The notes beneath the pieces were generated by a model. That model saw nothing but the letters and a program-made list of their open reading frames with translations, searched no databases and was not told the DNA's origin. The translations under genes and the position numbers were made by a program. A DNA stretch of 64,000 nt from Escherichia phage LPEK22: the sequence record OK283619.1; one strand, given 5' to 3'. Of the stretch, positions 33,591 through 61,862 are shown piece after piece; the stretch's first letter is position 1; every line of letters starts with the position of its first letter.

Positions 33591-33618
33591 TATAAATACC
33601 CCCAAAATTGGGGGTATT
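33591..33618 (+). promoter_or_regulatory. TATAAATA late-promoter-like box fused to a 9-bp-stem hairpin immediately upstream of the ATG at 33621
   Basis: tataaataccccc aaaatt gggggtattt. Arms aataccccc / gggggtatt. Confidence 0.45.
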
Positions 33619-33620
33619 TT

Positions 33621-34349
33621 ATGAACGCACAAATCTACGATGTCCTTTCCTCTGGTAATGCATTTAGCAACCCGCTTCCGTCCCTCTCCGGTCCCTCACA
33701 GGATTTAATCACCAGTGGTAGTACCAATATACCATTGATAACTGCCAACGCGACTCCGGAGATGCAGGCGGCTATGGTTGCTGGTGGACTAACACCAGAA
33801 AAACTCACAGCAGCCACCACCATGTATAGCGCCGCCAACACGGGGATAACGACACTGAACACATATGGCGACCAAAGTATCAATGACGCGTATTCTCGCA
33901 TCGGTACTTCCGTGTCATACAAATCAGGTCTGAAGGGTATATCACGAGAGCCAAACAATTGTGATTTGATCAACAAGGCTTTTGGTGTTGTTCAGGATTT
34001 AGGACGCCAATGGCTGAATGCTATGGAAGGTGCTCTACAGACCGTAACAAACAAGATATCGGAATTGTATGACATGATTATGGAAGGTGCCTCAGAAGGG
34101 ATGGCAAAACTACAGCAATTGGCTGCTGAAGTAACAGGACATATCAATGAGGCAATAACCGCAGTCAACGGGGTTATAAGTGATATTACAGATGGTATAG
34201 CCGCAGAACTTGCTCACATTGAAAGCATGATCAAAGAATGTCTAAACTTCTCTTTTGCGAATGTTCTTGGAGAATGGGCTAAAGATCTCTGTGCTGGAGG
34301 CGTTATTGATAAAATAGGGACTCCAGAATTAAAAGAGTCCCTGAAATAA
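33621..34349 (+). CDS. Hypothetical protein (242 aa)
   Basis: ATG immediately after the TATAAATA plus hairpin element at 33591-33618. Confidence 0.5.
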   Translation: MNAQIYDVLSSGNAFSNPLPSLSGPSQDLITSGSTNIPLITANATPEMQAAMVAGGLTPEKLTAATTMYSAANTGITTLNTYGDQSINDAYSRIGTSVSYKSGLKGISREPNNCDLINKAFGVVQDLGRQWLNAMEGALQTVTNKISELYDMIMEGASEGMAKLQQLAAEVTGHINEAITAVNGVISDITDGIAAELAHIESMIKECLNFSFANVLGEWAKDLCAGGVIDKIGTPELKESLK

Positions 34350-34970
34350 TTAATGTCTAGCGGGGAGAACTCCCACTGGTTCGATACCTTCCATCACCAG
34401 GGAGTTCACCCCAACATCACTCATTCGAATCCATACTTTACCGCCTGGTCTTATTTCATAGATGTTCATTTCATTACCCACAGCAGATCCATTAACGAAA
34501 ACACCCTGAGTGGCAATTCGGATCGGAGATTTGGTGTTATTAACTATCTGAAATGATATTGCAACGTCTCTGGTGATTTCTACGTCCCTTGCTTGAGTAT
34601 TCCTTCTGAGTTTGTCAAAGAAAGAAGGGTTGAAAGTCGCTATGATGCTATTATTCTGAGAGTAATAAATACTTGCGGATAGATATGGGATCTTTCCTTC
34701 GTCACCTTTCCTCAATAGGGGAATCGTGGTTTTCCAGTATGGTCTCAGTGACTGGTTGTTATCATCAAAACAACCAACAGCTTGAAGAGTCTGGAAGTTC
34801 TGAAAATCAGATACTACTTGATTCAGAATATTTTTATTGCATTTATCAATGTCGGCTGAGATGTTAACAGGTATGGTTCTGATTTCAGGATCCCAGAGGT
34901 CGGTTACAGAAATGACGGACGTGACAAAGATACGGCAACTTGTGAGTGCAAGCACCATTATCATCGTCAT
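34350..34970 (-). CDS. Hypothetical secreted or membrane protein (about 206 aa), antisense to the flanking genes
   Basis: Minus-strand ORF. ATG at 34970 gives a hydrophobic N-terminus (MTMIMVLALTSCRIF). The track start at 35048 is a TTG. Confidence 0.4.
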   Translation of the reverse strand: MTMIMVLALTSCRIFVTSVISVTDLWDPEIRTIPVNISADIDKCNKNILNQVVSDFQNFQTLQAVGCFDDNNQSLRPYWKTTIPLLRKGDEGKIPYLSASIYYSQNNSIIATFNPSFFDKLRRNTQARDVEITRDVAISFQIVNNTKSPIRIATQGVFVNGSAVGNEMNIYEIRPGGKVWIRMSDVGVNSLVMEGIEPVGVLPARH

Positions 34971-35033
34971 GATCCATTTTCTGAATCCGCGTATCAGGAA
35001 CACTAAAACGTTCTCCACAGCAAAGGTGCTAAC

Positions 35034-36774: not shown

Positions 36775-36800
36775 CTCCATAATATTGGGGGAAATTAGTG

Positions 36801-38300
36801 ATGTCTGAGATCCAAATAGTCAAAGTGAACGAAGTTAGAATGCGGATCCTTACCGAGGATTATATCCGTGAAGAACTCAACGATTACTTCAAATTTGAAG
36901 ATCCTAATTTCCAACCGAATCCGTTCAGTAAATGGGACGGCGTAGTGCGGCTGTTCACAAAGAGTTCTGGGCTTATCGACATCGGCCTGTTATTTGAGGT
37001 GTTCAAATTCTGTAAGATGAACGGTTACACCATCAAATTAGATCCGACCTTAAAATATATTCAAGATATTCCGGATGAAGAAATTCATGCGTTCATCGAT
37101 ACATTGAATGCGGTGTACCGAGACGAAAACAAACAATATCAAAAAGCGATTGTCCGCGATTATCAATTTGATTCTGTTGCCACAGCAATACGCCAAAGCA
37201 GATGTGTCCTCGAAGCTGCCACGAGTGCTGGCAAATCCTTTATTTTGTACATCATGGCGCGTTACTACAGGCAACGCAGAGATGCCCTCGAAAGTAATCT
37301 GAGGACGTTAATTGTTGTACCATCCATTCATTTGGTGACTCAGTTGTATGACAACTTCGAAGAATATAGCCACGGGACAGAATGGAAGCCATTGATGAAC
37401 GTCCAGACAATATACGAAGGGGCAACGAAAGAGATTTTCAAACCCATAGTTATTTCAACTTGGCAAGGTATCCAGAACCAACCCAAAGAGTGGTTCCATC
37501 AATTTGGAGATATCGTCGTCGACGAAGTACATACATCAAAATCAGATAAATTGTCTTACATCTTGAACAACTGTATTAACGCTGATCAACGTTTGGGAGT
37601 AACCGGAACCCTGGCGAATACAAAGGTCGCAGGGTTACAAGTCGTTGCTCACTTTGGCGCATATCATAAAATTATTACAGCGCGCGATTTAATCGATCTA
37701 GGATATGCGGTAGACATCAATGTTAATATGATTGAAGTCATACATCCTATGGCAGACTGTATTGAAATGCACGGTGCTGAGTATCAAAAGGAAATAGAAT
37801 TCCTCATTGCTAACGAACGCCGCAATGAATTGATAGCCCGAATGGCTCTATCTTTGAAAGGGAACGTCGCAGTCATGTTCGAACGTATCGATGCACACAT
37901 GATGTTGGTTTATGAAATGCTATCGGCAGTCAAGAAAAACGTATTCGTCATCAACGGGGAAGTCAAGACAGAAGTTCGTAAACAGATTCAGGCTGCTATG
38001 GAAGAAGGGGAAGATATAACACTGTTGGCATCATATGGTACTATGCAACAGGGCGTATCTATCAAAAAACTCCATCATCTGATATTGGCCCATCCCAGCA
38101 AATCTTATATCCGTGTTATACAGACATTGGGGCGTTTGATGCGCCAGCATTCCTCTAAGGATGTTGCGCGAATCTGGGACCTGGTAGACAACCTGCGTTA
38201 CAACGGTTCCTACAACCATGCTCTCAGGCATTCTCATGAGAGATATAAATTTTATCTTATGGAGCGCCACCCTGTTAAAATGAAAAAAGTGGCGCTCTAA
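36801..38300 (+). CDS. uvsW: UvsW-like DNA helicase
   Basis: KWDGVVRL, ATSAGKSF (Walker A), STWQGIQNQPKEWFHQFG, DEVH, ASYGTMQQGVSIKKLHHLILAH, QTLGRLMR and WDLVD align along the length with T4 UvsW as recalled. ATG at 36801 (track start is GTG). Confidence 0.9.
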   Translation: MSEIQIVKVNEVRMRILTEDYIREELNDYFKFEDPNFQPNPFSKWDGVVRLFTKSSGLIDIGLLFEVFKFCKMNGYTIKLDPTLKYIQDIPDEEIHAFIDTLNAVYRDENKQYQKAIVRDYQFDSVATAIRQSRCVLEAATSAGKSFILYIMARYYRQRRDALESNLRTLIVVPSIHLVTQLYDNFEEYSHGTEWKPLMNVQTIYEGATKEIFKPIVISTWQGIQNQPKEWFHQFGDIVVDEVHTSKSDKLSYILNNCINADQRLGVTGTLANTKVAGLQVVAHFGAYHKIITARDLIDLGYAVDINVNMIEVIHPMADCIEMHGAEYQKEIEFLIANERRNELIARMALSLKGNVAVMFERIDAHMMLVYEMLSAVKKNVFVINGEVKTEVRKQIQAAMEEGEDITLLASYGTMQQGVSIKKLHHLILAHPSKSYIRVIQTLGRLMRQHSSKDVARIWDLVDNLRYNGSYNHALRHSHERYKFYLMERHPVKMKKVAL

Positions 38301-38305
38301 CCATT

Positions 38306-38671
38306 TCAAAGATCTTGGTTCACATAGGCGGGGGTTGCCTCGCCTTCTTTGTTGGAACCAAATAAACAGTCGATCGTGCCAATACATTGTTGTAGCACTT
38401 TCGGCTCAAGAATCTGAGAAAACAATTCTTCATTAGATGCCAGCAGTGGAACAACTTTCACTTCCCGCGCCTGGCCTTGTTGAATAATGCCAACATACAG
38501 ACCTTTGTTATTTGGGAGTAATGGTATCACCAACATCGGTGACACAATAAACCCCGATGTACAGAAAAGACTTTGTAAATAAACGCCTTTTAATGACGGA
38601 CGTTGTTCTGCTATGGAAAGAATTACTTCTTGGTCTTCCCCTACTGCGTATAAACCAACAAATTGCTTCAT
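38306..38671 (-). CDS. Hypothetical protein (121 aa), minus strand, divergent from the clamp gene
   Basis: ATG on minus strand, convergent with uvsW. Function unknown. Confidence 0.45.
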   Translation of the reverse strand: MKQFVGLYAVGEDQEVILSIAEQRPSLKGVYLQSLFCTSGFIVSPMLVIPLLPNNKGLYVGIIQQGQAREVKVVPLLASNEELFSQILEPKVLQQCIGTIDCLFGSNKEGEATPAYVNQDL

Positions 38672-39010
38672 ATATTATTTCTCACGTGTTAGCAAACTTG
38701 ACTACATAATAATGTCATGTTCTGTTTAGACCAAATAAAATATTTTAATTGTTGAATAAAAATCGCTTTCTTGTTGAACAATCCGTGCGTAATATACGAG
38801 TTGTGAGCTTTGCGAGCAACGAGTATTATCACGAGCGAAGCGAGTAGACTGATAAAGAAAGGTTTTATTAAAACAGAATATTATAAATGCCGTCAGGCAT
38901 TTATTTATCGCGCGTAGGGCAATTTATCACTTGTTCTATAACTACAAACACGCGATACTAATTTGCGTCAAATATGACTTGAACCCCACTATATTTTGAG
39001 GATACAACTA
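38672..39010. promoter_or_regulatory. Long AT-rich divergent intergenic region (about 340 bp) with short direct repeats
   Basis: Largest non-coding gap in the window. Lies between the divergent minus ORF at 38306-38671 and the clamp gene. Contains TTGTTGAA twice and a cluster of ACGAG/GCGAG repeats at 38796-38844. Confidence 0.4.
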
Positions 39011-39679
39011 ATGCAAGAGATCACTCTCTCCGAACGCACTTTACAACTGCTGGCTAACTTTGAAACCATCTGCCCCTCTATCGTTCTGGCACCTGGTAAA
39101 AAGTTGCGCACTGTTAACGATTCCAGTACAGTTATCGCTATTGCCGACATTGACGAAGACTTCCCGTTCGAATTCCCGATTCTGGATCTGACCAAATTGC
39201 TGGCAATCCAGCGTCTGCCGAGTTTTAAAGGCGGTAAAATTGAAATGTCGGAAGACCACATTTTGCTGAAAGGTGAAAACTCCCAACTGCAATTCTGGCG
39301 TTCCGCTAAAGAACTGACTGTCGTTCCGGCAGACAGCATCGATCTCCCGTCTGTAGAATTTGAAGCAACAGTCACTCCTGAAAAAATGAAAGAGCTGACC
39401 CGCGCATGTTCTACTCTGGGCCACAAAACTGTACGCCTGGTTGCCAGCGGCGGTAAAACTCGTCTGGTGGGCACGACCACTACTATCGACAATTCCAACG
39501 ATTACACTGTTGAGTTGGGTGAAACAACTCTGGGTGATTTTGCTATGCCTGTTGATGTGGTCAACCTGAAAATGATCGAAGGCAACTACGTGATCCGCGC
39601 CTGTGCCGAAATGCAACTGGTTAACTTCCAATCCGCAGACGGCACCATCAACTATTACGTCGGCATGCAGCTGGATTAA
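39011..39679 (+). CDS. Sliding clamp, T4 gp45-like
   Basis: LQLLANFETICPSIVLAPG parallels T4 gp45 (LLKNFATINSGIMLKSG). ATG at 39011 with RBS gagga (track start is TTG). Lies upstream of the clamp loader. Confidence 0.8.
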   Translation: MQEITLSERTLQLLANFETICPSIVLAPGKKLRTVNDSSTVIAIADIDEDFPFEFPILDLTKLLAIQRLPSFKGGKIEMSEDHILLKGENSQLQFWRSAKELTVVPADSIDLPSVEFEATVTPEKMKELTRACSTLGHKTVRLVASGGKTRLVGTTTTIDNSNDYTVELGETTLGDFAMPVDVVNLKMIEGNYVIRACAEMQLVNFQSADGTINYYVGMQLD

Positions 39680-56715: not shown

Positions 56716-57506
56716 TGTTCAAGAAATTGGTGTTTGGTGCAATTATGGTTCTGGCTGCAAGTCTACTTTCTGGTTGTGGTGGCGTTATCGATGAAGGTAA
56801 TGTCGGCGTTCGCACCCAATGGGGTGAAGTAGACATGAACCCTGTAACAGCGGGGATCTACACCAGCTTTGTTTCAAGCGTGGATGTTTACACGACCAAA
56901 GAAGCCGTTGTGAGTCTGACGAAAATGACGCCAAAGGCCAAAGACAACCTGACCTTGGAAGATCTGGATGTGGACGTTTATTACACACCGAACGTCGCGA
57001 AGGTTCCTTGGTTCCATACCAAATTTGCAGGTCAGAGCGCTGAACTCGGTGACGGCACGATAGCGGTGGGATTCAACCTGGTTAAAACCGCCGCAGCATC
57101 CTCAACGATGGACGCCGTTTCCTCTTTGGATTCTATGACAATTCACACCCAACGGGCTGAGTTAGAAAAGATGATCAAGGAACGCACCCAGCAGCAATTG
57201 GAAACTGCTGCGCCTGGCATGTTCACAATCACACGTGTGTTGGTGAAAAAGGCGCTGACAGATCCTTCGATTGAGCAATCTATCCGTGATAATGTCATGG
57301 CCGACAAACGTTTGGATACAGCAAGAAAGAACGTTGAAATTCGAGACCAAGAAGCCAGGGCGAATCAGAAACTGACGACATCTCTGACACCTGAATATTT
57401 ACAACACGAATATAACATGGTGTTGCAATCTTGCGCCAACAGCGGGAAATGTACTCTGATTGTTGATGGTTCAGGCTCAAGTAAAATGCTAAACGTCGGC
57501 AAATAA
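56715..57506 (+). CDS. Lipoprotein, possibly SPFH/band-7-like (263 aa)
   Basis: Signal peptide plus lipobox (AASLLSGCGG). RBS gaagggg. The SPFH resemblance (NVGVRTQWGEV...) is by eye only. Confidence 0.5.
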   Translation: MFKKLVFGAIMVLAASLLSGCGGVIDEGNVGVRTQWGEVDMNPVTAGIYTSFVSSVDVYTTKEAVVSLTKMTPKAKDNLTLEDLDVDVYYTPNVAKVPWFHTKFAGQSAELGDGTIAVGFNLVKTAAASSTMDAVSSLDSMTIHTQRAELEKMIKERTQQQLETAAPGMFTITRVLVKKALTDPSIEQSIRDNVMADKRLDTARKNVEIRDQEARANQKLTTSLTPEYLQHEYNMVLQSCANSGKCTLIVDGSGSSKMLNVGK

Positions 57507-57589
57507 ACGCTTTATTCAATAGTATTTGTTAGGTAAGCTGTAGTCCTCTTGTAGTGAAACATCGTAAACAACTAACTGGAGTAATCCGA

Positions 57590-57868
57590 ATGAACCGTAC
57601 TGATTTTATCGCTCACATCGCTCAAACCCAGGGTATGACCAAAGGCGAAGCTGAGAAAATCGTTGCATCTTTTATCAATGGCGTGAAAACTGCAGTCGCG
57701 GCTGGCCAATCTGTCCAATTCGTAGGCTTCGGCGCGTTCGAAGTTAAACATCAGGAAGCGCGCACTGGCCGCAACCCGCTGAACGGACAACAGATCCAGA
57801 TCGAAGCGAAAAATGTAGTTAAATTCAAAGTCGGTGAAGGTCTGAAAGCTGCTGCCAACGGCCAGTAA
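57590..57868 (+). CDS. HU/IHF-family histone-like DNA-binding protein
   Basis: MNRTDFIAHIAQ...VQFVGFGAFEVKHQEARTGRNPLNGQQIQIEAKNV aligns along the length with bacterial HU (...[35 protein letters not shown]). ATG at 57590 with GGAG RBS. Confidence 0.85.
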   Translation: MNRTDFIAHIAQTQGMTKGEAEKIVASFINGVKTAVAAGQSVQFVGFGAFEVKHQEARTGRNPLNGQQIQIEAKNVVKFKVGEGLKAAANGQ

Positions 57869-57928
57869 TCACACCAGGCGTCGGCTCAGCGCATGTCTGC
57901 AGTGCAGCGGCGCAAGGCTAAAAGGAGA

Positions 57929-57956
57929 AGCCGAGGTTAATGCCTCGGCTTTTTCG
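57929..57956 (+). terminator. Rho-independent terminator after the HU-like gene
   Basis: agccgagg/cctcggct stem plus ttttt. Confidence 0.8.
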
Positions 57957-58003
57957 TTGTTGGGATTCGGGTAAACTATAACAGAATCCAAAGGAGGAAC
58001 AAC

Positions 58004-59725
58004 GTGACAGCATTTAATCAACACCGAAAGGCGATTGACGCCATAGGCCGTAAGGTTCCTGTGGAAGAAATACAACGCCTTACCAAAGATGAATTCCCAT
58101 ATGACAAAGCGAACCCAGGCCAGATGGAATGCATCGTCGAAGCCATAGATGCGCTTATCAACAAAAAGGTTAAACATGTCATCATTGAAGCTCCGACAGG
58201 TGTCGGTAAATCTTTGATTGGCACTACCATTCATAAAGTGATTCGCCATCTAGTTTTACAGGCTGATCCTTATGGGCAATTTCGCACTTCTATCAGCACC
58301 CCGACCAAAGGTCTGCAAGATCAGTATGCTGCTGAAAAGGCGGTGGCGATAGACATCCTAAAAGGCAAGAAGAACTATCGTTGCCACGTACATCCAGATG
58401 TGTATTACAATGCTGTCCAATGCCGTATAGCATGCCGTGACGGGCATTGTAGCAAACGCCGCTGTCCTTATGTACAGGCGCGTAATTTGTGGACGGATAT
58501 TTCATCATTGCGTTGTACTAATGCTGCCATGATGATCGAAATGTGTACAACCATCTGCATGAAGCCCGAAAACCGTTCCGATATGCTGATCCTTGACGAG
58601 TGCCATAAAATGCCCTCTACGCTCCTAGAGCACACGATCATGGAATACAATACAAAGGCCGTGGAGGGGCTGCGTTCTATCCCTGATGGCAAGGAGATCG
58701 TCTCTACCATTGGTGATATCGTAGAACGCACCAAGGACTATGTCCTGGGCAAGTTATATTCCTTGTCTGGTGAACTACATTCAATGTTTGAAGACCTCCA
58801 TCTCAAAGTAGAAAATTTGTTGGAAGTTCTTGAAGAATTGGTCGAAGATGATCGCTTGAGTGAAAGCCAAGTGATGAAACTCGCCGACATTATAGATGTC
58901 TTGCATAACTTGAGTGATTATTGCGGTATTATGTCTCAGACAAAGGCCAGCACCTTTATCGTACAGGAAAAGGGAGATGACTTTATTCGGTTTAAACCCG
59001 TTATGCCTTCTGATGTAAGTGAATTCGGGTTATTCCGAAAAGCTGATTATCACGTTCATATGTCAGCAACGATCTGTGGTATAGATTCGTATGCTCGTTC
59101 ATTGGGTATTCGACAGGGGGATTATCATTCCATTCAGATCGGCAACCCTATCCCGATTGAAAACAGAAAAGTCAACTATATGCCCATAGTGAAGATGACT
59201 AACAATATGGGTGACTATGAAATGAAAAGGTTGACGGAATATATTGATGAAATAATCGCGTTCCACCCAGGTCAGTCCGGTATTATCCATACAGTGAGTT
59301 ATGATCGCGCGTTGGCAATACAAAAATTCAGCAAATATCAGAATTTTATCCATGTTCCGCGCACCCGAAAGGCGTTGATGGATATTATGGAAAATGCTTT
59401 TAGAACAAAGTCCCCATGCGTCATTGCCAGTCCTGCCATGGAAGAAGGTTATGATTTCAAAGGGGATTACAGCCGTTTCCAAATACTGATCAAAGTCCCT
59501 TATGATTATCTGGGCGATCCACTGATAGCACATATCAATTCAGTGGATCCGTCGGCATATTTCCGCAATGCAGTACTGCGCATTGTTCAAATGTGTGGGC
59601 GTTCGGTCAGGGGTGTTGATGACTGGGCTGCGACATACATCATTGATTCATCTTTTGAATCTCTTATGATGCGCAACCCAGAATTCTTCCCAACCTGGTT
59701 CACCGATGCAGTGTTTGAGGTTTAA
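58004..59725 (+). CDS. DinG/Rad3 (XPD)-family Fe-S helicase, GTG start
   Basis: Walker A EAPTGVGKS, DEAH-type box ILDECH, four-Cys cluster between them (C..C....C....C). Strong RBS aaggagg 6 nt before the GTG. Confidence 0.8.
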   Translation: MTAFNQHRKAIDAIGRKVPVEEIQRLTKDEFPYDKANPGQMECIVEAIDALINKKVKHVIIEAPTGVGKSLIGTTIHKVIRHLVLQADPYGQFRTSISTPTKGLQDQYAAEKAVAIDILKGKKNYRCHVHPDVYYNAVQCRIACRDGHCSKRRCPYVQARNLWTDISSLRCTNAAMMIEMCTTICMKPENRSDMLILDECHKMPSTLLEHTIMEYNTKAVEGLRSIPDGKEIVSTIGDIVERTKDYVLGKLYSLSGELHSMFEDLHLKVENLLEVLEELVEDDRLSESQVMKLADIIDVLHNLSDYCGIMSQTKASTFIVQEKGDDFIRFKPVMPSDVSEFGLFRKADYHVHMSATICGIDSYARSLGIRQGDYHSIQIGNPIPIENRKVNYMPIVKMTNNMGDYEMKRLTEYIDEIIAFHPGQSGIIHTVSYDRALAIQKFSKYQNFIHVPRTRKALMDIMENAFRTKSPCVIASPAMEEGYDFKGDYSRFQILIKVPYDYLGDPLIAHINSVDPSAYFRNAVLRIVQMCGRSVRGVDDWAATYIIDSSFESLMMRNPEFFPTWFTDAVFEV

Positions 59726-60489
59726 TAACCCGCAATAAACGATAAATGGCACTTGATATTTGGTTCAAGTGTCGTTATCGTGATAATCATATTGTCCACA
59801 TCTTGGCTGAAAGATATATTTGCGATCGGTTTGGTTTGAACATGATTATACAGGCTATAAATCAGATCTTCACCACGATAACCGATTTTGCCATCAGTGT
59901 CCTGCCAATGACCGAGGGTAGACTCTCGAGCGTGTACTCGGAATTCGACCATATGAAACAATGCTTTTGGGATTGTCTTCAGTATGCTGGTCCCAACAAC
60001 CGGAATATCAATAGAAGAGTCGTTGGAGTTTCCTTCATAAACAGATTCCCAACCAAATATTGGATCACCTCCTGCCACAGGAGTTCTTTTCCAGTATTGG
60101 AATTCTGGGTTGCCCGAAGCGTTCTTTTGTAGGAGGATTACTTCACCGCCTTCAAAATTGGAAGTGTCTATATCGTCCCTTGCTAATAAATCTGCCGGAG
60201 AACCAATAAATTTCCAAGTTTCGCGATCTAAAATAGACTTATAATAATCGGTGAATACGTTGCTGTCGTTAGCTGCATTGATTGCGTCTTTAAGACCTTC
60301 ACCTGTGACCATCTCATTAAGTTTTAGCCACATGTTTTTGACAGCTGACGCAGCTGCGACTTGACCTTCAGTCCCACCCGCCGTGTAGTCATAAATGATG
60401 TCCAGCTTTTGTATGGAATCATTTATAGACAAGAGCAAACGCTCAATTTCTGGGGCGGTCAGACTGAAACGATATGCGCGTTCTGACAT
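59722..60489 (-). CDS. Hypothetical protein (255 aa), minus strand
   Basis: ATG on minus strand with RBS gaggaa. Its stop overlaps the helicase stop tail-to-tail (ttaa). Confidence 0.5.
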   Translation of the reverse strand: MSERAYRFSLTAPEIERLLLSINDSIQKLDIIYDYTAGGTEGQVAAASAVKNMWLKLNEMVTGEGLKDAINAANDSNVFTDYYKSILDRETWKFIGSPADLLARDDIDTSNFEGGEVILLQKNASGNPEFQYWKRTPVAGGDPIFGWESVYEGNSNDSSIDIPVVGTSILKTIPKALFHMVEFRVHARESTLGHWQDTDGKIGYRGEDLIYSLYNHVQTKPIANISFSQDVDNMIITITTLEPNIKCHLSFIAGY

Positions 60490-60531
60490 GATTCGTTCCT
60501 CATCGATAAAACCAGTTTGGGATACTTATAC

Positions 60532-61059
60532 ATGATTGAAATATACACTGACGGGGCATCATCCCCTCAGAAGACACGAGCCGCTGGTTGGGCATTTGCC
60601 ATCAGTCCAATCACTGGAGAGCAATGGAAAGTGTTTTATGGGTATTTACCCCCGCCGTCAACGAACAATATAGCTGAGTTACTCGGGGTTATAAACGCAA
60701 TGAAGATCCTATGGAAATTCTCTAATTGCGGTGAACGCTGCATTCCCCCAGCCCGCATCATATCCGACAGCCAATATGTTATCAATAGCGTTTTGGAGTG
60801 GCGTCGTAAATGGGAATATGAAGGAATGCCGCCTAAGAACACAGAACTTCTGCTCGAGTTGTTCGATTATTATGACAAAGTTTGTTCAATTTGTGAACTT
60901 GAATTAAAATGGGTGAAAGGTCATGCAGGAACGATGGGCAACGAAATTGCGGATCAGTGGAGCGTTAGAGCCAAAGAAGATAGTTCAATGGTTCTTGAAA
61001 ATAACCGTTTCTCGGTCAAGAAAGTCGTTGGTTCTTTCAATGAATTCATTGGTATTTGA
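60532..61059 (+). CDS. Ribonuclease HI (RNase H1-type)
   Basis: IYTDGAS...AGWAF...NNIAELLGVINAM...SDSQYVIN...WVKGHAG..GNE.AD carries the catalytic-residue pattern of RNase HI. ATG at 60532 (track start is TTG). Confidence 0.85.
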   Translation: MIEIYTDGASSPQKTRAAGWAFAISPITGEQWKVFYGYLPPPSTNNIAELLGVINAMKILWKFSNCGERCIPPARIISDSQYVINSVLEWRRKWEYEGMPPKNTELLLELFDYYDKVCSICELELKWVKGHAGTMGNEIADQWSVRAKEDSSMVLENNRFSVKKVVGSFNEFIGI

Positions 61060-61070
61060 GGATTATCACG

Positions 61071-61862
61071 ATGGGTATGAATTTTGTAGACAGGGGTGAT
61101 AACGTCACCAAATATTTCACAGACGAAGATAATGACCGTGTTGTTGGAATATTGAGAGATTGGATTCCGGCTCGCAAAAAGGCTTTGGCCGAAGGAACAC
61201 CCCTACCAAGAATCCCCAATTATGTGGCCATGAATGTTCAGATGATTATTAAGAACATGAGTATGCGCTACAACTATCGTGATTATCCATACCGCGAAGA
61301 CATGGTCAGTGAGGCCGTTGTCAACATCCTTCGTTACCTCCATACATTTGACGTCAGTCATATCGGCAAGAAAGGAAAAATCAATTTCTTCTCTTGGGTA
61401 ACGATGTGCGCCGATCGTTCATTCGCCAAGAAACTCACCAGTGAAGAAGAACACAATTATATCAAGTTGCGTTCATTTGAAGAAGCAGGTGGTTTCGCTG
61501 CATTATCAGATGACCCAGACTTCCAGCAACAGACATTCGTAGACAGCACTGGTATAACAATGGACTTCCGTGAGCGTATCGGAAATTTTGAAACTAAGAA
61601 AGAAGCACAGCGCGAAAAGGAACGCCAAAAGCAAATCGCCATCAAAGAAGAGGAAAAGAATAAGAAAATTCCTCGCGGTATACTTCAATGTCTCACAAAG
61701 AGTGAAAATACCATTACCGCCGACGCCGAAGATAATTCAGACTATGACTTCGGCTCTACTCAATTCAATCTGGAAGACGAAATATGTTCTATGGAACCAG
61801 ATTGGGAAGAAGCAAAGAAACGAGCATTAGAACGGGAGCAACAAAATAATGGCGATTGCTAA
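61071..61862 (+). CDS. Late-transcription sigma factor, T4 gp55-like, with C-terminal extension
   Basis: QMIIKNMSMRYNYRDYPYREDMVSEAVVNILRYLHTFD and INFFSWVTMCADRSFAKKLTSEEE parallel T4 gp55 as recalled. 263 aa against about 185 aa in T4; extra Lys/Glu-rich C-terminal region. Confidence 0.75.
   Translation: MGMNFVDRGDNVTKYFTDEDNDRVVGILRDWIPARKKALAEGTPLPRIPNYVAMNVQMIIKNMSMRYNYRDYPYREDMVSEAVVNILRYLHTFDVSHIGKKGKINFFSWVTMCADRSFAKKLTSEEEHNYIKLRSFEEAGGFAALSDDPDFQQQTFVDSTGITMDFRERIGNFETKKEAQREKERQKQIAIKEEEKNKKIPRGILQCLTKSENTITADAEDNSDYDFGSTQFNLEDEICSMEPDWEEAKKRALEREQQNNGDC

What the first reader, a model, noticed from the sequence alone, without database searches (positions are those of the whole stretch)
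58004..60489. GTG-initiated Fe-S helicase overlapping an antisense gene tail-to-tail
The DinG/Rad3-type helicase (Walker A, DEAH-type box, four-Cys cluster) starts at a GTG 6 nt after a perfect AAGGAGG, with no in-frame ATG nearby. Its stop overlaps by 4 nt the stop of a 255-aa minus-strand ORF of unknown function, which is divergently paired with RNase HI across only about 40 bp. The arrangement is compact and unusual.
Basis: seen in the sequence. Interest (0 to 1): 0.4.

Follow-up and report, generated by a model that had tools for sequence, protein, structure and literature searches.

The report
Phage helicase beside reversed baseplate-like gene
This is an ordinary, already annotated stretch of a Kuttervirus (ViI/CBA120-like) phage genome: an iron-sulfur DNA helicase that starts at GTG, followed by one reverse-strand late gene for a virion protein that resembles the T4 baseplate protein gp9.

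Summary
The window is a Kuttervirus (Ackermannviridae) genome, about 99% identical to SFP10 and CBA120.

**Helicase (58004-59725, +).** This is CBA120 orf124, an XPD/Rad3/DinG-superfamily helicase.
- All SF2 motifs are present.
- Four cysteines are invariant: C127, C140, C149 and C154.
- The GTG start with its Shine-Dalgarno sequence is conserved in five enterobacterial-phage genera.
- Starting at the first ATG (codon 41) would delete the conserved FPY..GQ motif.

**Minus-strand ORF (59722-60489, 255 aa).** This is not an orphan of unknown function.
- Its LIMEstone1 ortholog, ORF093, is a virion protein confirmed by mass spectrometry.
- Its C-terminal domain is homologous to T4 gp9 (hhalign 94.6%, E 6.6e-8).
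- It is preceded by a T4-type late promoter: TATAAGTA here, and a perfect TATAAATA in four sister genera. The promoter lies in the 42-bp spacer, 1 nt from the RNase H start codon.

**The 4-nt stop overlap.** It is a TTAA in which two TAA stops share bases.
- It is kept in four genera.
- It is absent in phiMAM1 (0 nt) and in Vibrio phage VP-1 (456-nt gap).
- Another reversed gene in this window abuts its neighbour with 0 nt.

**Verdict.** Compact phage gene packing, already annotated. The gp9 link is a modest refinement, and it contradicts a review that says the family lacks gp9.

The parts
57928..57951 (.). GC-rich hairpin (AAGCCGAGG/CCTCGGCTT) with a T-run, downstream of the HU-like gene. It is a probable intrinsic terminator that separates HU from the helicase. 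It is also the only terminator-like site that a minus-strand late transcript would meet after crossing the helicase gene.
   Evidence: terminator-like, minus-strand version. The sequence shows the plus-strand TTTTT tail. The orthologous site is annotated as a 'putative factor-independent terminator' in LIMEstone1.
57972..57977 (+). -10-like hexamer TAAACT (TAnnnT), 26 nt upstream of the helicase GTG. A probable promoter element for the helicase.
   Evidence: A TAnnnT hexamer (a less clear AT-rich GATAAAAT stretch in VP-1) sits at the equivalent distance in 10 Ackermannviridae phages: TAAACT, TAGAAT, TACAAT, TATAAT. The sigma-70 scan found no canonical -35. This is an inference.
57991..57997 (+). 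Shine-Dalgarno sequence AAGGAGG, 6 nt before the GTG.
   Evidence: GGAG(G/A) is conserved at this position in five genera.
58004..59725 (+). XPD/Rad3/DinG-superfamily Fe-S DNA helicase, 573 aa, 65.3 kDa, GTG start. It corresponds to CBA120 orf124, Vi01_106c and LIMEstone1 ORF094.
   Evidence: Pfam Helicase_C_2 7e-12. phrog_2488 'DNA helicase' 9e-265. Profile against PDB: 9kqh 8.6e-22, DinG 5.3e-16, XPD 1e-12. Annotated identically in CBA120, ViI and LIMEstone1.
58382..58465 (+). Compact Fe-S cluster module: C127-x12-C140-x8-C149-x4-C154, lying between motif Ia and motif II (DECH).
   Evidence: The four Cys are invariant in alignment A4. C127, C149 and C154 align with E. coli DinG Cys120, Cys199 and Cys205. 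Metal binding was not tested.
59722..59725 (.). TTAA: the shared stop-stop overlap. The plus-strand TAA is at 59723-59725 and the minus-strand TAA is the complement of 59722-59724.
   Evidence: TTAA or CTAA is kept in Kuttervirus, Limestonevirus, Taipeivirus and Nezavisimistyvirus. It is not kept in phiMAM1 or VP-1.
59722..60489 (-). Late gene for a 255-aa (28.5 kDa, pI 4.8) virion structural protein with a gp9/gp10-like C-terminal beta-sandwich. It corresponds to CBA120 orf123, Vi01_105 and LIMEstone1 ORF093.
60496..60501 (-). Shine-Dalgarno sequence GAGGAA, 6 nt before the ATG of the gp9-like gene.
   Evidence: GAGGA/AGGAG is conserved at this position in all 10 phages compared.
60523..60530 (-). 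T4-type late promoter element TATAAGTA (consensus TATAAATA). It lies 33 nt upstream of the gp9-like ATG and 1 nt from the RNase H ATG on the other strand.
   Evidence: The orthologous position holds a perfect TATAAATA in LIMEstone1, 0507-KN2-1, phiEa2809 and phiMAM1, and xCTAAATA in Vibrio phages. LIMEstone1 annotates it as a 'putative late promoter'.
60532..61059 (+). RNase HI, 175 aa, ATG start, divergent from the gp9-like gene across 42 bp. It has no Shine-Dalgarno sequence, because the late promoter occupies that position.
   Evidence: Pfam RNase_H 5.9e-24 covering the protein from residue 2. phrog_531. A 528-nt CDS is annotated in ViI and LIMEstone1.
61071..61862 (+). gp55-like late sigma factor, the factor expected to read the late promoter above.
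   Evidence: Annotated as 'late sigma transcription factor' in CBA120, ViI and LIMEstone1 at the syntenic position. Pfam gave no hit.

Best explanation
This is the conserved replication and recombination block of a Kuttervirus phage, in the order HU, helicase, RNase HI, gp55, gp47, gp46. One virion gene is inserted in it in the opposite orientation.

- **Helicase.** It is an XPD/Rad3/DinG-superfamily SF2 enzyme with a minimal four-Cys Fe-S module. It is translated from a GTG that lies 6 nt after a strong Shine-Dalgarno sequence. It is probably transcribed from its own promoter just downstream of the HU terminator.
- **Reverse-strand gene.** It encodes a 28.5-kDa virion protein whose C-terminal domain is homologous to the C-terminal domain of T4 baseplate protein gp9. 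It is most likely a trimeric peripheral baseplate or adaptor protein.
- **Late promoter.** The gene is expressed late from a gp55-type promoter, TATAAGTA. That promoter is squeezed into the 42-bp spacer shared with RNase HI and takes the place of an RNase HI Shine-Dalgarno sequence.
- **Stop overlap.** The TTAA overlap follows from tight packing: a C-terminal Tyr codon TAT plus TAA on one strand reads TAA on the other. It is not a regulatory device.

Shown here: gene identities, motif and Cys conservation, start-codon and promoter conservation, synteny, and remote homology and fold similarity to gp9. Virion presence comes from published mass spectrometry.

Inferred: Fe-S binding, helicase polarity, late timing, baseplate location and trimeric state.
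For: Identity of the locus:
- About 99% nucleotide identity to SFP10 and CBA120, with 260 phage records covering at least 80% of the query.
- The same CDS coordinates are annotated in CBA120, ViI and LIMEstone1.

Helicase:
- Pfam Helicase_C_2 and phrog_2488.
- Invariant Q, I, Ia, II (DECH), III, V and VI motifs, and four invariant Cys.
- Profile hits to DinG, XPD, Rad3, CHL1 and FANCJ.

GTG start:
- It is the first start codon after the upstream stop. The next ATG, codon 41, lies after the invariant FPY..GQ motif.
- GTG plus GGAG is conserved in five genera even though the N-terminal peptide differs. The Vibrio clades use ATG at the homologous position.

255-aa protein:
- 38 close homologs at 55-100% identity, with 58 invariant columns.
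- LIMEstone1 ORF093 was confirmed in virions by ESI-MS/MS, with 8 peptides.
- BLASTP to T4 gp9 gives E 0.005, collinear over the C-terminal domain.
- hhalign gives 94.6%, E 6.6e-8.
- PF23618 (T4_gp9_10_C) is the only Pfam family that recurs among the family members.
- Foldseek's top hit for the first, lower-confidence model (pLDDT 64.6) is T4 gp9, E 3.6e-8.

Late promoter:
- TATAA(A/G)TA is a conserved island in an otherwise diverged spacer.
- The gp55 gene is adjacent.

Packing:
- The junction varies between genera.
- A second reversed gene abuts its neighbour with 0 nt.
Against: - No transcript or N-terminal proteomic data for this phage were found. The literature searches turned up no Ackermannviridae transcriptome.
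- The Kuttervirus promoter has a mismatch (A6 to G) to the T4 consensus.
- TATAARTA is not enriched in the window: 4 matches found against 3.8 expected.
- Homology to gp9 is detectable only for the C-terminal roughly 100 residues. The N-terminal 150 residues match neither PF07880 nor the gp9 profile.
- Global TM-scores to gp9 are low, about 0.35.
- A 2024 review states that Ackermannviridae lack gp9-gp11.
Confidence: 0.8

Rival explanations
1. The convergent 4-nt overlap is a regulatory device. With no room for a terminator, late transcription of the minus-strand gene would run antisense through the whole helicase gene to the hairpin at 57928-57951. That would shut the helicase off late in infection, by transcriptional interference or by duplex RNA formation.
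For: - No terminator-like site lies on the minus strand between 59722 and the hairpin at 57951-57928.
- The overlap is kept in four genera.
- A late promoter is present.
Against: - The overlap is lost in phiMAM1 (0 nt).
- It is replaced by a 456-nt spacer in VP-1.
- It is interrupted by an extra gene in Vibrio phages 207E48.1 and D533.
- Equally tight junctions occur at other reversed genes in this genome.
- TTAA arises trivially from Tyr-TAA. From general knowledge, 4-nt convergent overlaps are the commonest class in prokaryotes.
- No transcript data exist.
Confidence: 0.12
2. The helicase actually starts at the downstream ATG (codon 41, position 58124), as some records annotate it (533 aa in Klebsiella phage T751). 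On this view the GTG is an annotation artefact.
For: One cluster, P0228 from Klebsiella phage T751, is annotated at 533 aa. ATG is the commoner start codon.
Against: - An M41 start removes the invariant F31, G39 and Q40 of the Q-motif.
- There is no Shine-Dalgarno sequence before 58124.
- GTG plus Shine-Dalgarno is conserved across five genera, and the Vibrio homologs start with ATG at the homologous N-terminus.
- All 26 aligned homologs carry at least about 8 residues before the FPF motif.
Confidence: 0.04
3. The 255-aa virion protein is not a gp9 equivalent. It would be a different accessory structural protein, such as a head or neck decoration or a tailspike-complex adaptor, that merely shares a common beta-sandwich domain with gp9, gp10 and the N-terminal anchor domains of podovirus tailspikes.
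For: - Only the C-terminal domain shows sequence homology.
- The N-terminal region carries a fiber-like motif that is repeated in long tailspike-like proteins.
- Ackermannviridae have no long tail fibers for a gp9 to connect.
Against: - Gp9 proteins are the top hit with two programs and two independent models.
- PF23618 is the only Pfam family that recurs among the members.
- The size (255 aa against 288 aa) and the three-part layout are similar.
Confidence: 0.3

Closest known systems
CBA120 orf124 / Vi01_106c / LIMEstone1 ORF094 (Ackermannviridae 'DNA helicase', phrog_2488)
   Same: The protein is 84-99% identical. It has the same 573-aa GTG-initiated CDS, the same neighbours and the same overlap.
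   Different: Nothing substantive. The window is another isolate of the same genus.
E. coli DinG and archaeal/eukaryotic XPD/Rad3 (Fe-S SF2 5'-3' helicases)
   Same: It has all the helicase motifs, DE(A/C)H, the Helicase_C_2 domain, and four Cys between motifs Ia and II that align with the DinG cluster ligands.
   Different: - It is shorter (573 aa against 716-760 aa).
- Its Fe-S module is very compact, with the four Cys within 28 residues. DinG has about 73 residues between Cys120 and Cys194.
- It scores far below the DinG and YoaA equivalog cut-offs (58 bits against 598).
- Pfam DEAD_2 does not hit it.
T4 gp9 (baseplate wedge / long-tail-fiber connector; PDB 1QEX; Pfam PF07880 + PF23618)
   Same: - Similar size.
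- It is a virion protein.
- The C-terminal beta-sandwich is homologous at the profile level.
- It gives the best structural match.
   Different: - The N-terminal and middle regions have no detectable sequence homology to PF07880. They are predicted to be largely helical over about 100 residues, followed by a small four-strand segment.
- The gene is not in the baseplate cluster. It stands alone and reversed among the replication genes.
- Ackermannviridae carry tailspike complexes, not long tail fibers.
LIMEstone1 ORF093 'unknown structural protein' with an annotated late promoter
   Same: It is the ortholog (82% identity). It has the same flanking genes, the same 4-nt overlap (CTAA there) and a late promoter at the same position.
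   Different: LIMEstone1 has a perfect TATAAATA. The Kuttervirus genomes have TATAAGTA.

Membership tests
XPD/Rad3/DinG-type Fe-S SF2 helicases | Conserved SF2 motifs Q, I (Walker A), Ia, II (DEAH-type), III, V and VI | tested here: met
   FPY..NPGQ at residues 31-40, APTGVGKS at 63-70, DECH at 198-201, MSAT at 353-356, SPAMEEGYDFKGD at 476-488 and QMCGRSVRG at 529-537. Core residues of each motif are invariant in 26 homologs.
XPD/Rad3/DinG-type Fe-S SF2 helicases | Four-cysteine Fe-S cluster domain inserted between motifs Ia and II | tested here: met
   C127, C140, C149 and C154 are invariant. They align with the DinG Cys120/199/205 region. This is a sequence-level test only.
XPD/Rad3/DinG-type Fe-S SF2 helicases | Family-specific C-terminal helicase domain (Pfam Helicase_C_2) and significant similarity to solved family members | tested here: met
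   PF13307 scores 46 bits against a cut-off of 25.3. The profile gives E 8.6e-22 to 1e-11 against 9kqh, DinG, XPD, Rad3, CHL1 and FANCJ.
XPD/Rad3/DinG-type Fe-S SF2 helicases | Bound [4Fe-4S] cluster and 5'-3' unwinding activity | not testable with these tools
   This needs purified protein: UV-vis or EPR spectroscopy and helicase assays.
DinG orthologs (NCBIfam NF008729 equivalog) | Score above the curated equivalog cut-off (598 bits) | tested here: not met
   58.4 bits. It is a superfamily member, not a DinG ortholog.
T4 gp9 (baseplate wedge tail-fiber connector) | C-terminal domain PF23618 (T4_gp9_10_C) | tested here: met
   hhalign of the family profile against the gp9 profile gives 94.6%, E 6.6e-8, aligning residues 158-254 with gp9 177-281. 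BLASTP gives E 0.005. 5 of 58 family members hit PF23618, with best E 0.004; the window protein itself gives no Pfam hit. The homology is remote but consistent.
T4 gp9 (baseplate wedge tail-fiber connector) | N-terminal coiled coil plus middle beta-sandwich, PF07880 (T4_gp9_10_N) | tested here: not met
   No member hits PF07880. hhalign aligns only the C-terminal domain. Foldseek aligns the full length, but with TM of about 0.35.
T4 gp9 (baseplate wedge tail-fiber connector) | Component of the virion, located on the baseplate periphery as a trimer | tested here: inconclusive
   Virion presence is shown for the LIMEstone1 ortholog by mass spectrometry. Location and oligomeric state are not testable here. 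No solved structure contains this protein.
T4-type (gp55-dependent) late promoter | TATAAATA element about 6-8 nt upstream of the transcription start, upstream of a late (virion) gene, in a phage that encodes gp55 | tested here: inconclusive
   - The window has TATAAGTA, which matches 7 of 8 positions, at 60523-60530.
- Four sister genera have a perfect TATAAATA at the orthologous position.
- The gp55 gene is adjacent.
- The transcription start has not been mapped.
- The motif is not enriched in the window.

The most novel reading that the evidence does not exclude
The 255-aa protein is the 'missing' gp9 equivalent of Ackermannviridae. On this reading it is a trimeric peripheral baseplate protein that anchors or senses the branched tailspike complex (or the unexplained 'prongs') and helps trigger sheath contraction. 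This would contradict the published view that the family lacks gp9-gp11. Its lone reversed position among replication genes, with a late promoter that doubles as the RNase HI leader, would then be a family-wide signature.
Probability: 0.4. Interest if true: 0.4.

Novelty: already known. Interest (0 to 1): 0.15.

Why it matters
The arrangement itself matters little. It is standard compact phage gene packing and is already annotated in more than 250 genomes.

Three by-products are useful.
- Comparative support for the GTG start settles inconsistent helicase annotations (573 aa against 533 aa).
- RNase H is mis-annotated as N-terminally truncated in the CBA120 RefSeq record.
- The 'hypothetical' virion protein has a gp9-like C-terminal domain. 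That gives structural biologists working on Ackermannviridae baseplates and tailspike attachment a concrete candidate, in a family that a review describes as lacking gp9.

Tried and rejected
- **Single-sequence searches of the 255-aa protein** against Pfam, NCBIfam and the PDB (by sequence and by profile) gave nothing. PHROGs gave only families of unknown function.
- **The first AF2 model**, built from 27 close homologs, was poor (pLDDT 64.6). It improved to 88 only after distant homologs from the representative search were added.
- **The plus-strand hairpin at 60069-60083**, inside the gp9-like gene, was tested as a possible helicase terminator. It has one compensatory pair in ViI, but the T-tract is not kept there and the stem is lost in Taipeivirus, phiEa2809 and phiMAM1. 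It also coincides with the conserved peptide TPVAGGD. I rejected it as a conserved terminator.
- **TATAAATA-like motifs** are not enriched in the window, so the window alone cannot validate the late promoter. Only the cross-genus conservation does.
- **Rfam** gave only one sub-threshold hit, inside the HU gene.
- **Literature searches** for an Ackermannviridae transcriptome or for mapped Kuttervirus late promoters found nothing usable. The CBA120 paper states that the late promoter of ViI-like phages was not identified.
- **Long proteins that match residues 61-88 repeatedly** gave no informative Pfam names, apart from one pectate-lyase-like beta-helix.
- **The TTG at 60517** was considered as the RNase H start. 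I rejected it because it is out of frame in LIMEstone1.
Full report
**What the window is.** A megablast of 57500-61100 finds 271 phage records. 260 of them cover at least 80% of the query. The best are Salmonella and Escherichia Kuttervirus phages (SFP10, CBA120, BSP101 and others) at about 99% identity. The window is therefore a ViI-like Ackermannviridae genome. In CBA120 the same stretch is annotated in this order:
- orf125, DNA-binding (HU-like) protein
- orf124, DNA helicase (1722 nt)
- orf123, hypothetical protein (768 nt, opposite strand)
- orf121, RNase H
- orf120, gp55 late sigma factor
- orf119 and orf118, gp47 and gp46

ViI and Dickeya phage LIMEstone1 have the same layout.

**Checking the observation.** Every sequence statement holds.
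- The GTG is at 58004. AAGGAGG is at 57991-57997, and the spacer is 6 nt.
- The upstream in-frame stop is at 57938, with no start codon in between. The next in-frame candidates are GTG at codon 20, which has no Shine-Dalgarno sequence, and ATG at codon 41.
- The helicase stop (TAA, 59723-59725) and the stop of the 255-aa minus-strand ORF (complement of 59722-59724) share the palindrome TTAA, so the overlap is 4 nt.
- RNase HI starts at ATG 60532. The Pfam RNase_H match begins at its residue 2, and ViI and LIMEstone1 annotate the same 528-nt CDS. This leaves a 42-bp divergent spacer.

**The helicase.**
- Pfam gives Helicase_C_2 (7e-12) with weaker ResIII and DEAD matches. PHROGs gives phrog_2488, 'DNA helicase' (9e-265).
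- NCBIfam's best matches are DinG, YoaA and Rad3, but far below the equivalog cut-offs: 58 bits against 598.
- A profile of 26 homologs that reach down to 32% identity hits solved structures. These are a 5'-3' helicase 9kqh (8.6e-22), E. coli DinG (5.3e-16), XPD (about 1e-12), Rad3, CHL1 and FANCJ.
- In that alignment the Q-motif, Walker A, Ia, DECH, III, V and VI motifs are conserved, with invariant core residues. Exactly four cysteines are invariant: C127, C140, C149 and C154. The fifth local cysteine, C144, is not.
- C127, C149 and C154 align with DinG Cys120, Cys199 and Cys205. From my own knowledge, these are [4Fe-4S] ligands.

The protein is not a DinG ortholog, and its Fe-S module is unusually compact, with the four Cys within 28 residues.

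**The GTG start.**
- The orthologous helicases of Kuttervirus, Limestonevirus, Taipeivirus, Nezavisimistyvirus (phiEa2809) and Miltonvirus (phiMAM1) all begin with GTG, 6-8 nt after GGAG(G/A). This holds although the N-terminal peptides differ (VTAFNQ..., VFLQTK..., VVYEQS...).
- The Vibrio-phage clades use ATG at the homologous N-terminus.
- Starting at Met41, as one Klebsiella phage record does (533 aa), would delete the invariant F31, G39 and Q40.
- GTG is not rare here. 3 of 22 sampled CBA120 CDSs are annotated with GTG.
- The start is therefore well supported and unremarkable.
- A TAnnnT hexamer lies at about -32 to -27 from the start codon in nearly all ten phages; VP-1 has a less clear AT-rich stretch. 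It sits just downstream of the HU terminator hairpin at 57928-57951 (the terminator is annotated in LIMEstone1). This suggests that the helicase has its own promoter, which is an inference.

**The minus-strand gene is real and is a virion protein.**
- It has 38 close homologs at 55-100% identity, all about 255 aa, with 58 invariant columns.
- tblastn finds it in 357 phage records.
- Its LIMEstone1 ortholog (82% identity) is ORF093, annotated as a 'confirmed structural protein'.
- In the LIMEstone paper's Table 2, ORF93 is an 'unknown structural protein' of 28.32 kDa, with 40.78% coverage and 8 unique peptides (PMC3296691). The window protein computes to 28.46 kDa.
- ViI calls it a 'conserved phage associated protein'.
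- Several records call it a 'putative structural protein', and two call it a 'baseplate wedge protein'.

**What kind of virion protein it is.**
- Single-sequence searches found no Pfam, NCBIfam or PDB match.
- An exhaustive profile search of 1.84 billion representatives found only 59 relatives, mostly 245-260 aa.
- An AF2 model built from close homologs was weak (pLDDT 64.6). Even so, Foldseek against the PDB ranked T4 gp9 (1qex) first, at E 3.6e-8.
- Foldseek against viral models recovered the Vibrio-phage orthologs and also gp9 and baseplate-wedge entries.
- Adding the distant relatives raised the model to pLDDT 88.1.
- At the sequence level, BLASTP to T4 gp9 gives a collinear C-terminal match (E 0.005).
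- PF23618 (T4_gp9_10_C) is the only Pfam family hit by more than one family member: 5 of 58.
- hhalign of the family profile against a 43-sequence gp9 profile gives 94.6% probability, E 6.6e-8, over residues 158-254 against gp9 177-281.
- The N-terminal roughly 150 residues show no sequence homology to the gp9 N-terminal domain (PF07880).

I therefore file the protein as gp9-like in its C-terminal domain and overall size. I do not file it as a demonstrated gp9 family member.

A 2024 review states that Ackermannviridae lack gp9-gp11 (PMC11721090). The TSP4 anchor region is known to contain gp9/gp10-like domains (PMC8825819).

**Why the gene is reversed, and how it is expressed.**
- Upstream of its ATG lie a GAGGAA Shine-Dalgarno sequence and, 33 nt upstream, TATAAGTA (60523-60530, minus strand). 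This is one mismatch from the T4 late promoter TATAAATA.
- At the orthologous position LIMEstone1, Klebsiella 0507-KN2-1, phiEa2809 and phiMAM1 all have a perfect TATAAATA. The Vibrio phages have xCTAAATA. The rest of the spacer diverges.
- LIMEstone1's record annotates this element as a 'putative late promoter'.
- The gp55 late sigma gene lies 0.5 kb away.
- The motif is not enriched in the window by itself, so the support is comparative.
- The element sits 1 nt from the RNase HI ATG on the other strand. RNase HI therefore has no Shine-Dalgarno sequence. The shared 42-bp spacer is dual-use.

**Is the tail-to-tail overlap special?** It is not.
- TTAA, or CTAA in LIMEstone1, is kept in four genera.
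- phiMAM1 has TGA/TCA abutting, with 0-nt overlap.
- Vibrio phage VP-1 has a 456-nt gap.
- Vibrio phages 207E48.1 and D533 carry an extra 229-aa gene between the two. That gene itself overlaps the gp9-like gene by 4 nt.
- In this same window another lone reversed gene, 34350-35003 (CBA120 orf170, also GTG-initiated), abuts its convergent neighbour with 0 nt, as TAATTA.
- The overlap follows from a C-terminal Tyr codon TAT or TAC followed by TAA. From general knowledge, 4-nt convergent overlaps are the commonest convergent class in prokaryotic genomes.
- A regulatory antisense role cannot be excluded. No minus-strand terminator-like site lies between 59722 and the hairpin at 57951-57928. Nothing specifically supports such a role either.
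- The one plus-strand hairpin inside the gp9-like gene (60069-60083) is not conserved beyond Kuttervirus.

**Verdict.** The finding is accurate as a description and ordinary as biology. It is a well-annotated, compact phage module. The new content is a better-supported annotation of the 'hypothetical' gene as a late, gp9-like virion protein, plus two annotation corrections. Interest is low.

Noticed in passing
window 60532-61059 (compare L001 6132-6560): RefSeq CBA120 annotates RNase H as 142 aa from an internal GTG. This omits the N-terminal 33 residues (MIEIYTDGASS...) that carry the first catalytic Asp. The Pfam RNase_H match and the ViI and LIMEstone1 annotations support the 175-aa ATG start at 60532.
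   Followed up: partly
window 60490-60531: RNase HI has no Shine-Dalgarno sequence within 12 nt of its ATG. The divergent gene's late-promoter element occupies that position (TACTTATA on the plus strand). The in-frame TTG at 60517 is out of frame in LIMEstone1, so it is not a conserved alternative start.
   Followed up: partly
window 34350-35003 (-) and 33621-34349 (+): This is a second lone reversed gene (CBA120 orf170, 217 aa, GTG start after GGAGAA). It is convergent with orf171 with 0-nt spacing (TAATTA) and divergent from gp3 across about 30 bp. orf171 has a perfect TATAAATA 22 nt upstream (33591-33598). LIMEstone1 ORF129, a 25-kDa 'unknown structural protein' listed close to gp3 (ORF127) in the LIMEstone1 structural-protein table, may be the ortholog of orf170. 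I did not verify this.
   Followed up: partly
window ~38301-38995: About 700 nt between the orf165-type helicase (36798-38300) and gp45 (38996-39679) are unannotated in RefSeq CBA120. The stretch contains minus-strand ORFs of 118-121 aa (38031-38387 and 38306-38671).
   Followed up: no
window 60069-60083 (+): A hairpin, CTCCTG-CCA-CAGGAG followed by TTCTTTTCC, lies antisense within the gp9-like gene. ViI keeps the stem through a compensatory pair (CTCCCG/CGGGAG) but loses the T-run. The stem is absent in Taipeivirus, phiEa2809 and phiMAM1. It is probably a by-product of the conserved peptide TPVAGGD.
   Followed up: yes
window 59722-60489 (-), residues 61-88: The segment GLKDAINAANDSNVFTDYYKSILD matches a unit that is repeated 5-9 times in long (500-965 aa) metagenomic proteins. 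One of them has a pectate-lyase-like beta-helix. This suggests a fiber or tailspike-type repeat motif (NxFTDxxKxxLD).
   Followed up: partly
L006 5726-6415 and L011 4226-4915: Distant Vibrio Ackermannviridae have an extra 229-aa gene of unknown function between the gp9-like gene and the helicase. It also overlaps the gp9-like gene tail-to-tail by 4 nt.
   Followed up: no
L007 5004-5744 (Acinetobacter phage nACB2): The most distant phage homolog of the 255-aa protein (N-terminal half, 27% identity) lies in a different context. It is co-oriented with its neighbours and sits after a topoisomerase gene, so the divergent pairing with RNase H is not universal.
   Followed up: no
database records: Public annotations give inconsistent gene lengths. 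The gp9-like protein is 308 aa in Shigella phage ChubbyThor and 279 aa in Klebsiella phage K5lambda5, against a consensus of 255 aa. The helicase is 533 aa in Klebsiella phage T751, against 573 aa.
   Followed up: partly
window 57972-57977: A TAnnnT -10-like hexamer is present at about -32 to -27 from the helicase start in the Ackermannviridae loci compared, with a less clear AT-rich stretch in VP-1. No canonical -35 was found. It may be a middle-type or phage-specific promoter.
   Followed up: partly
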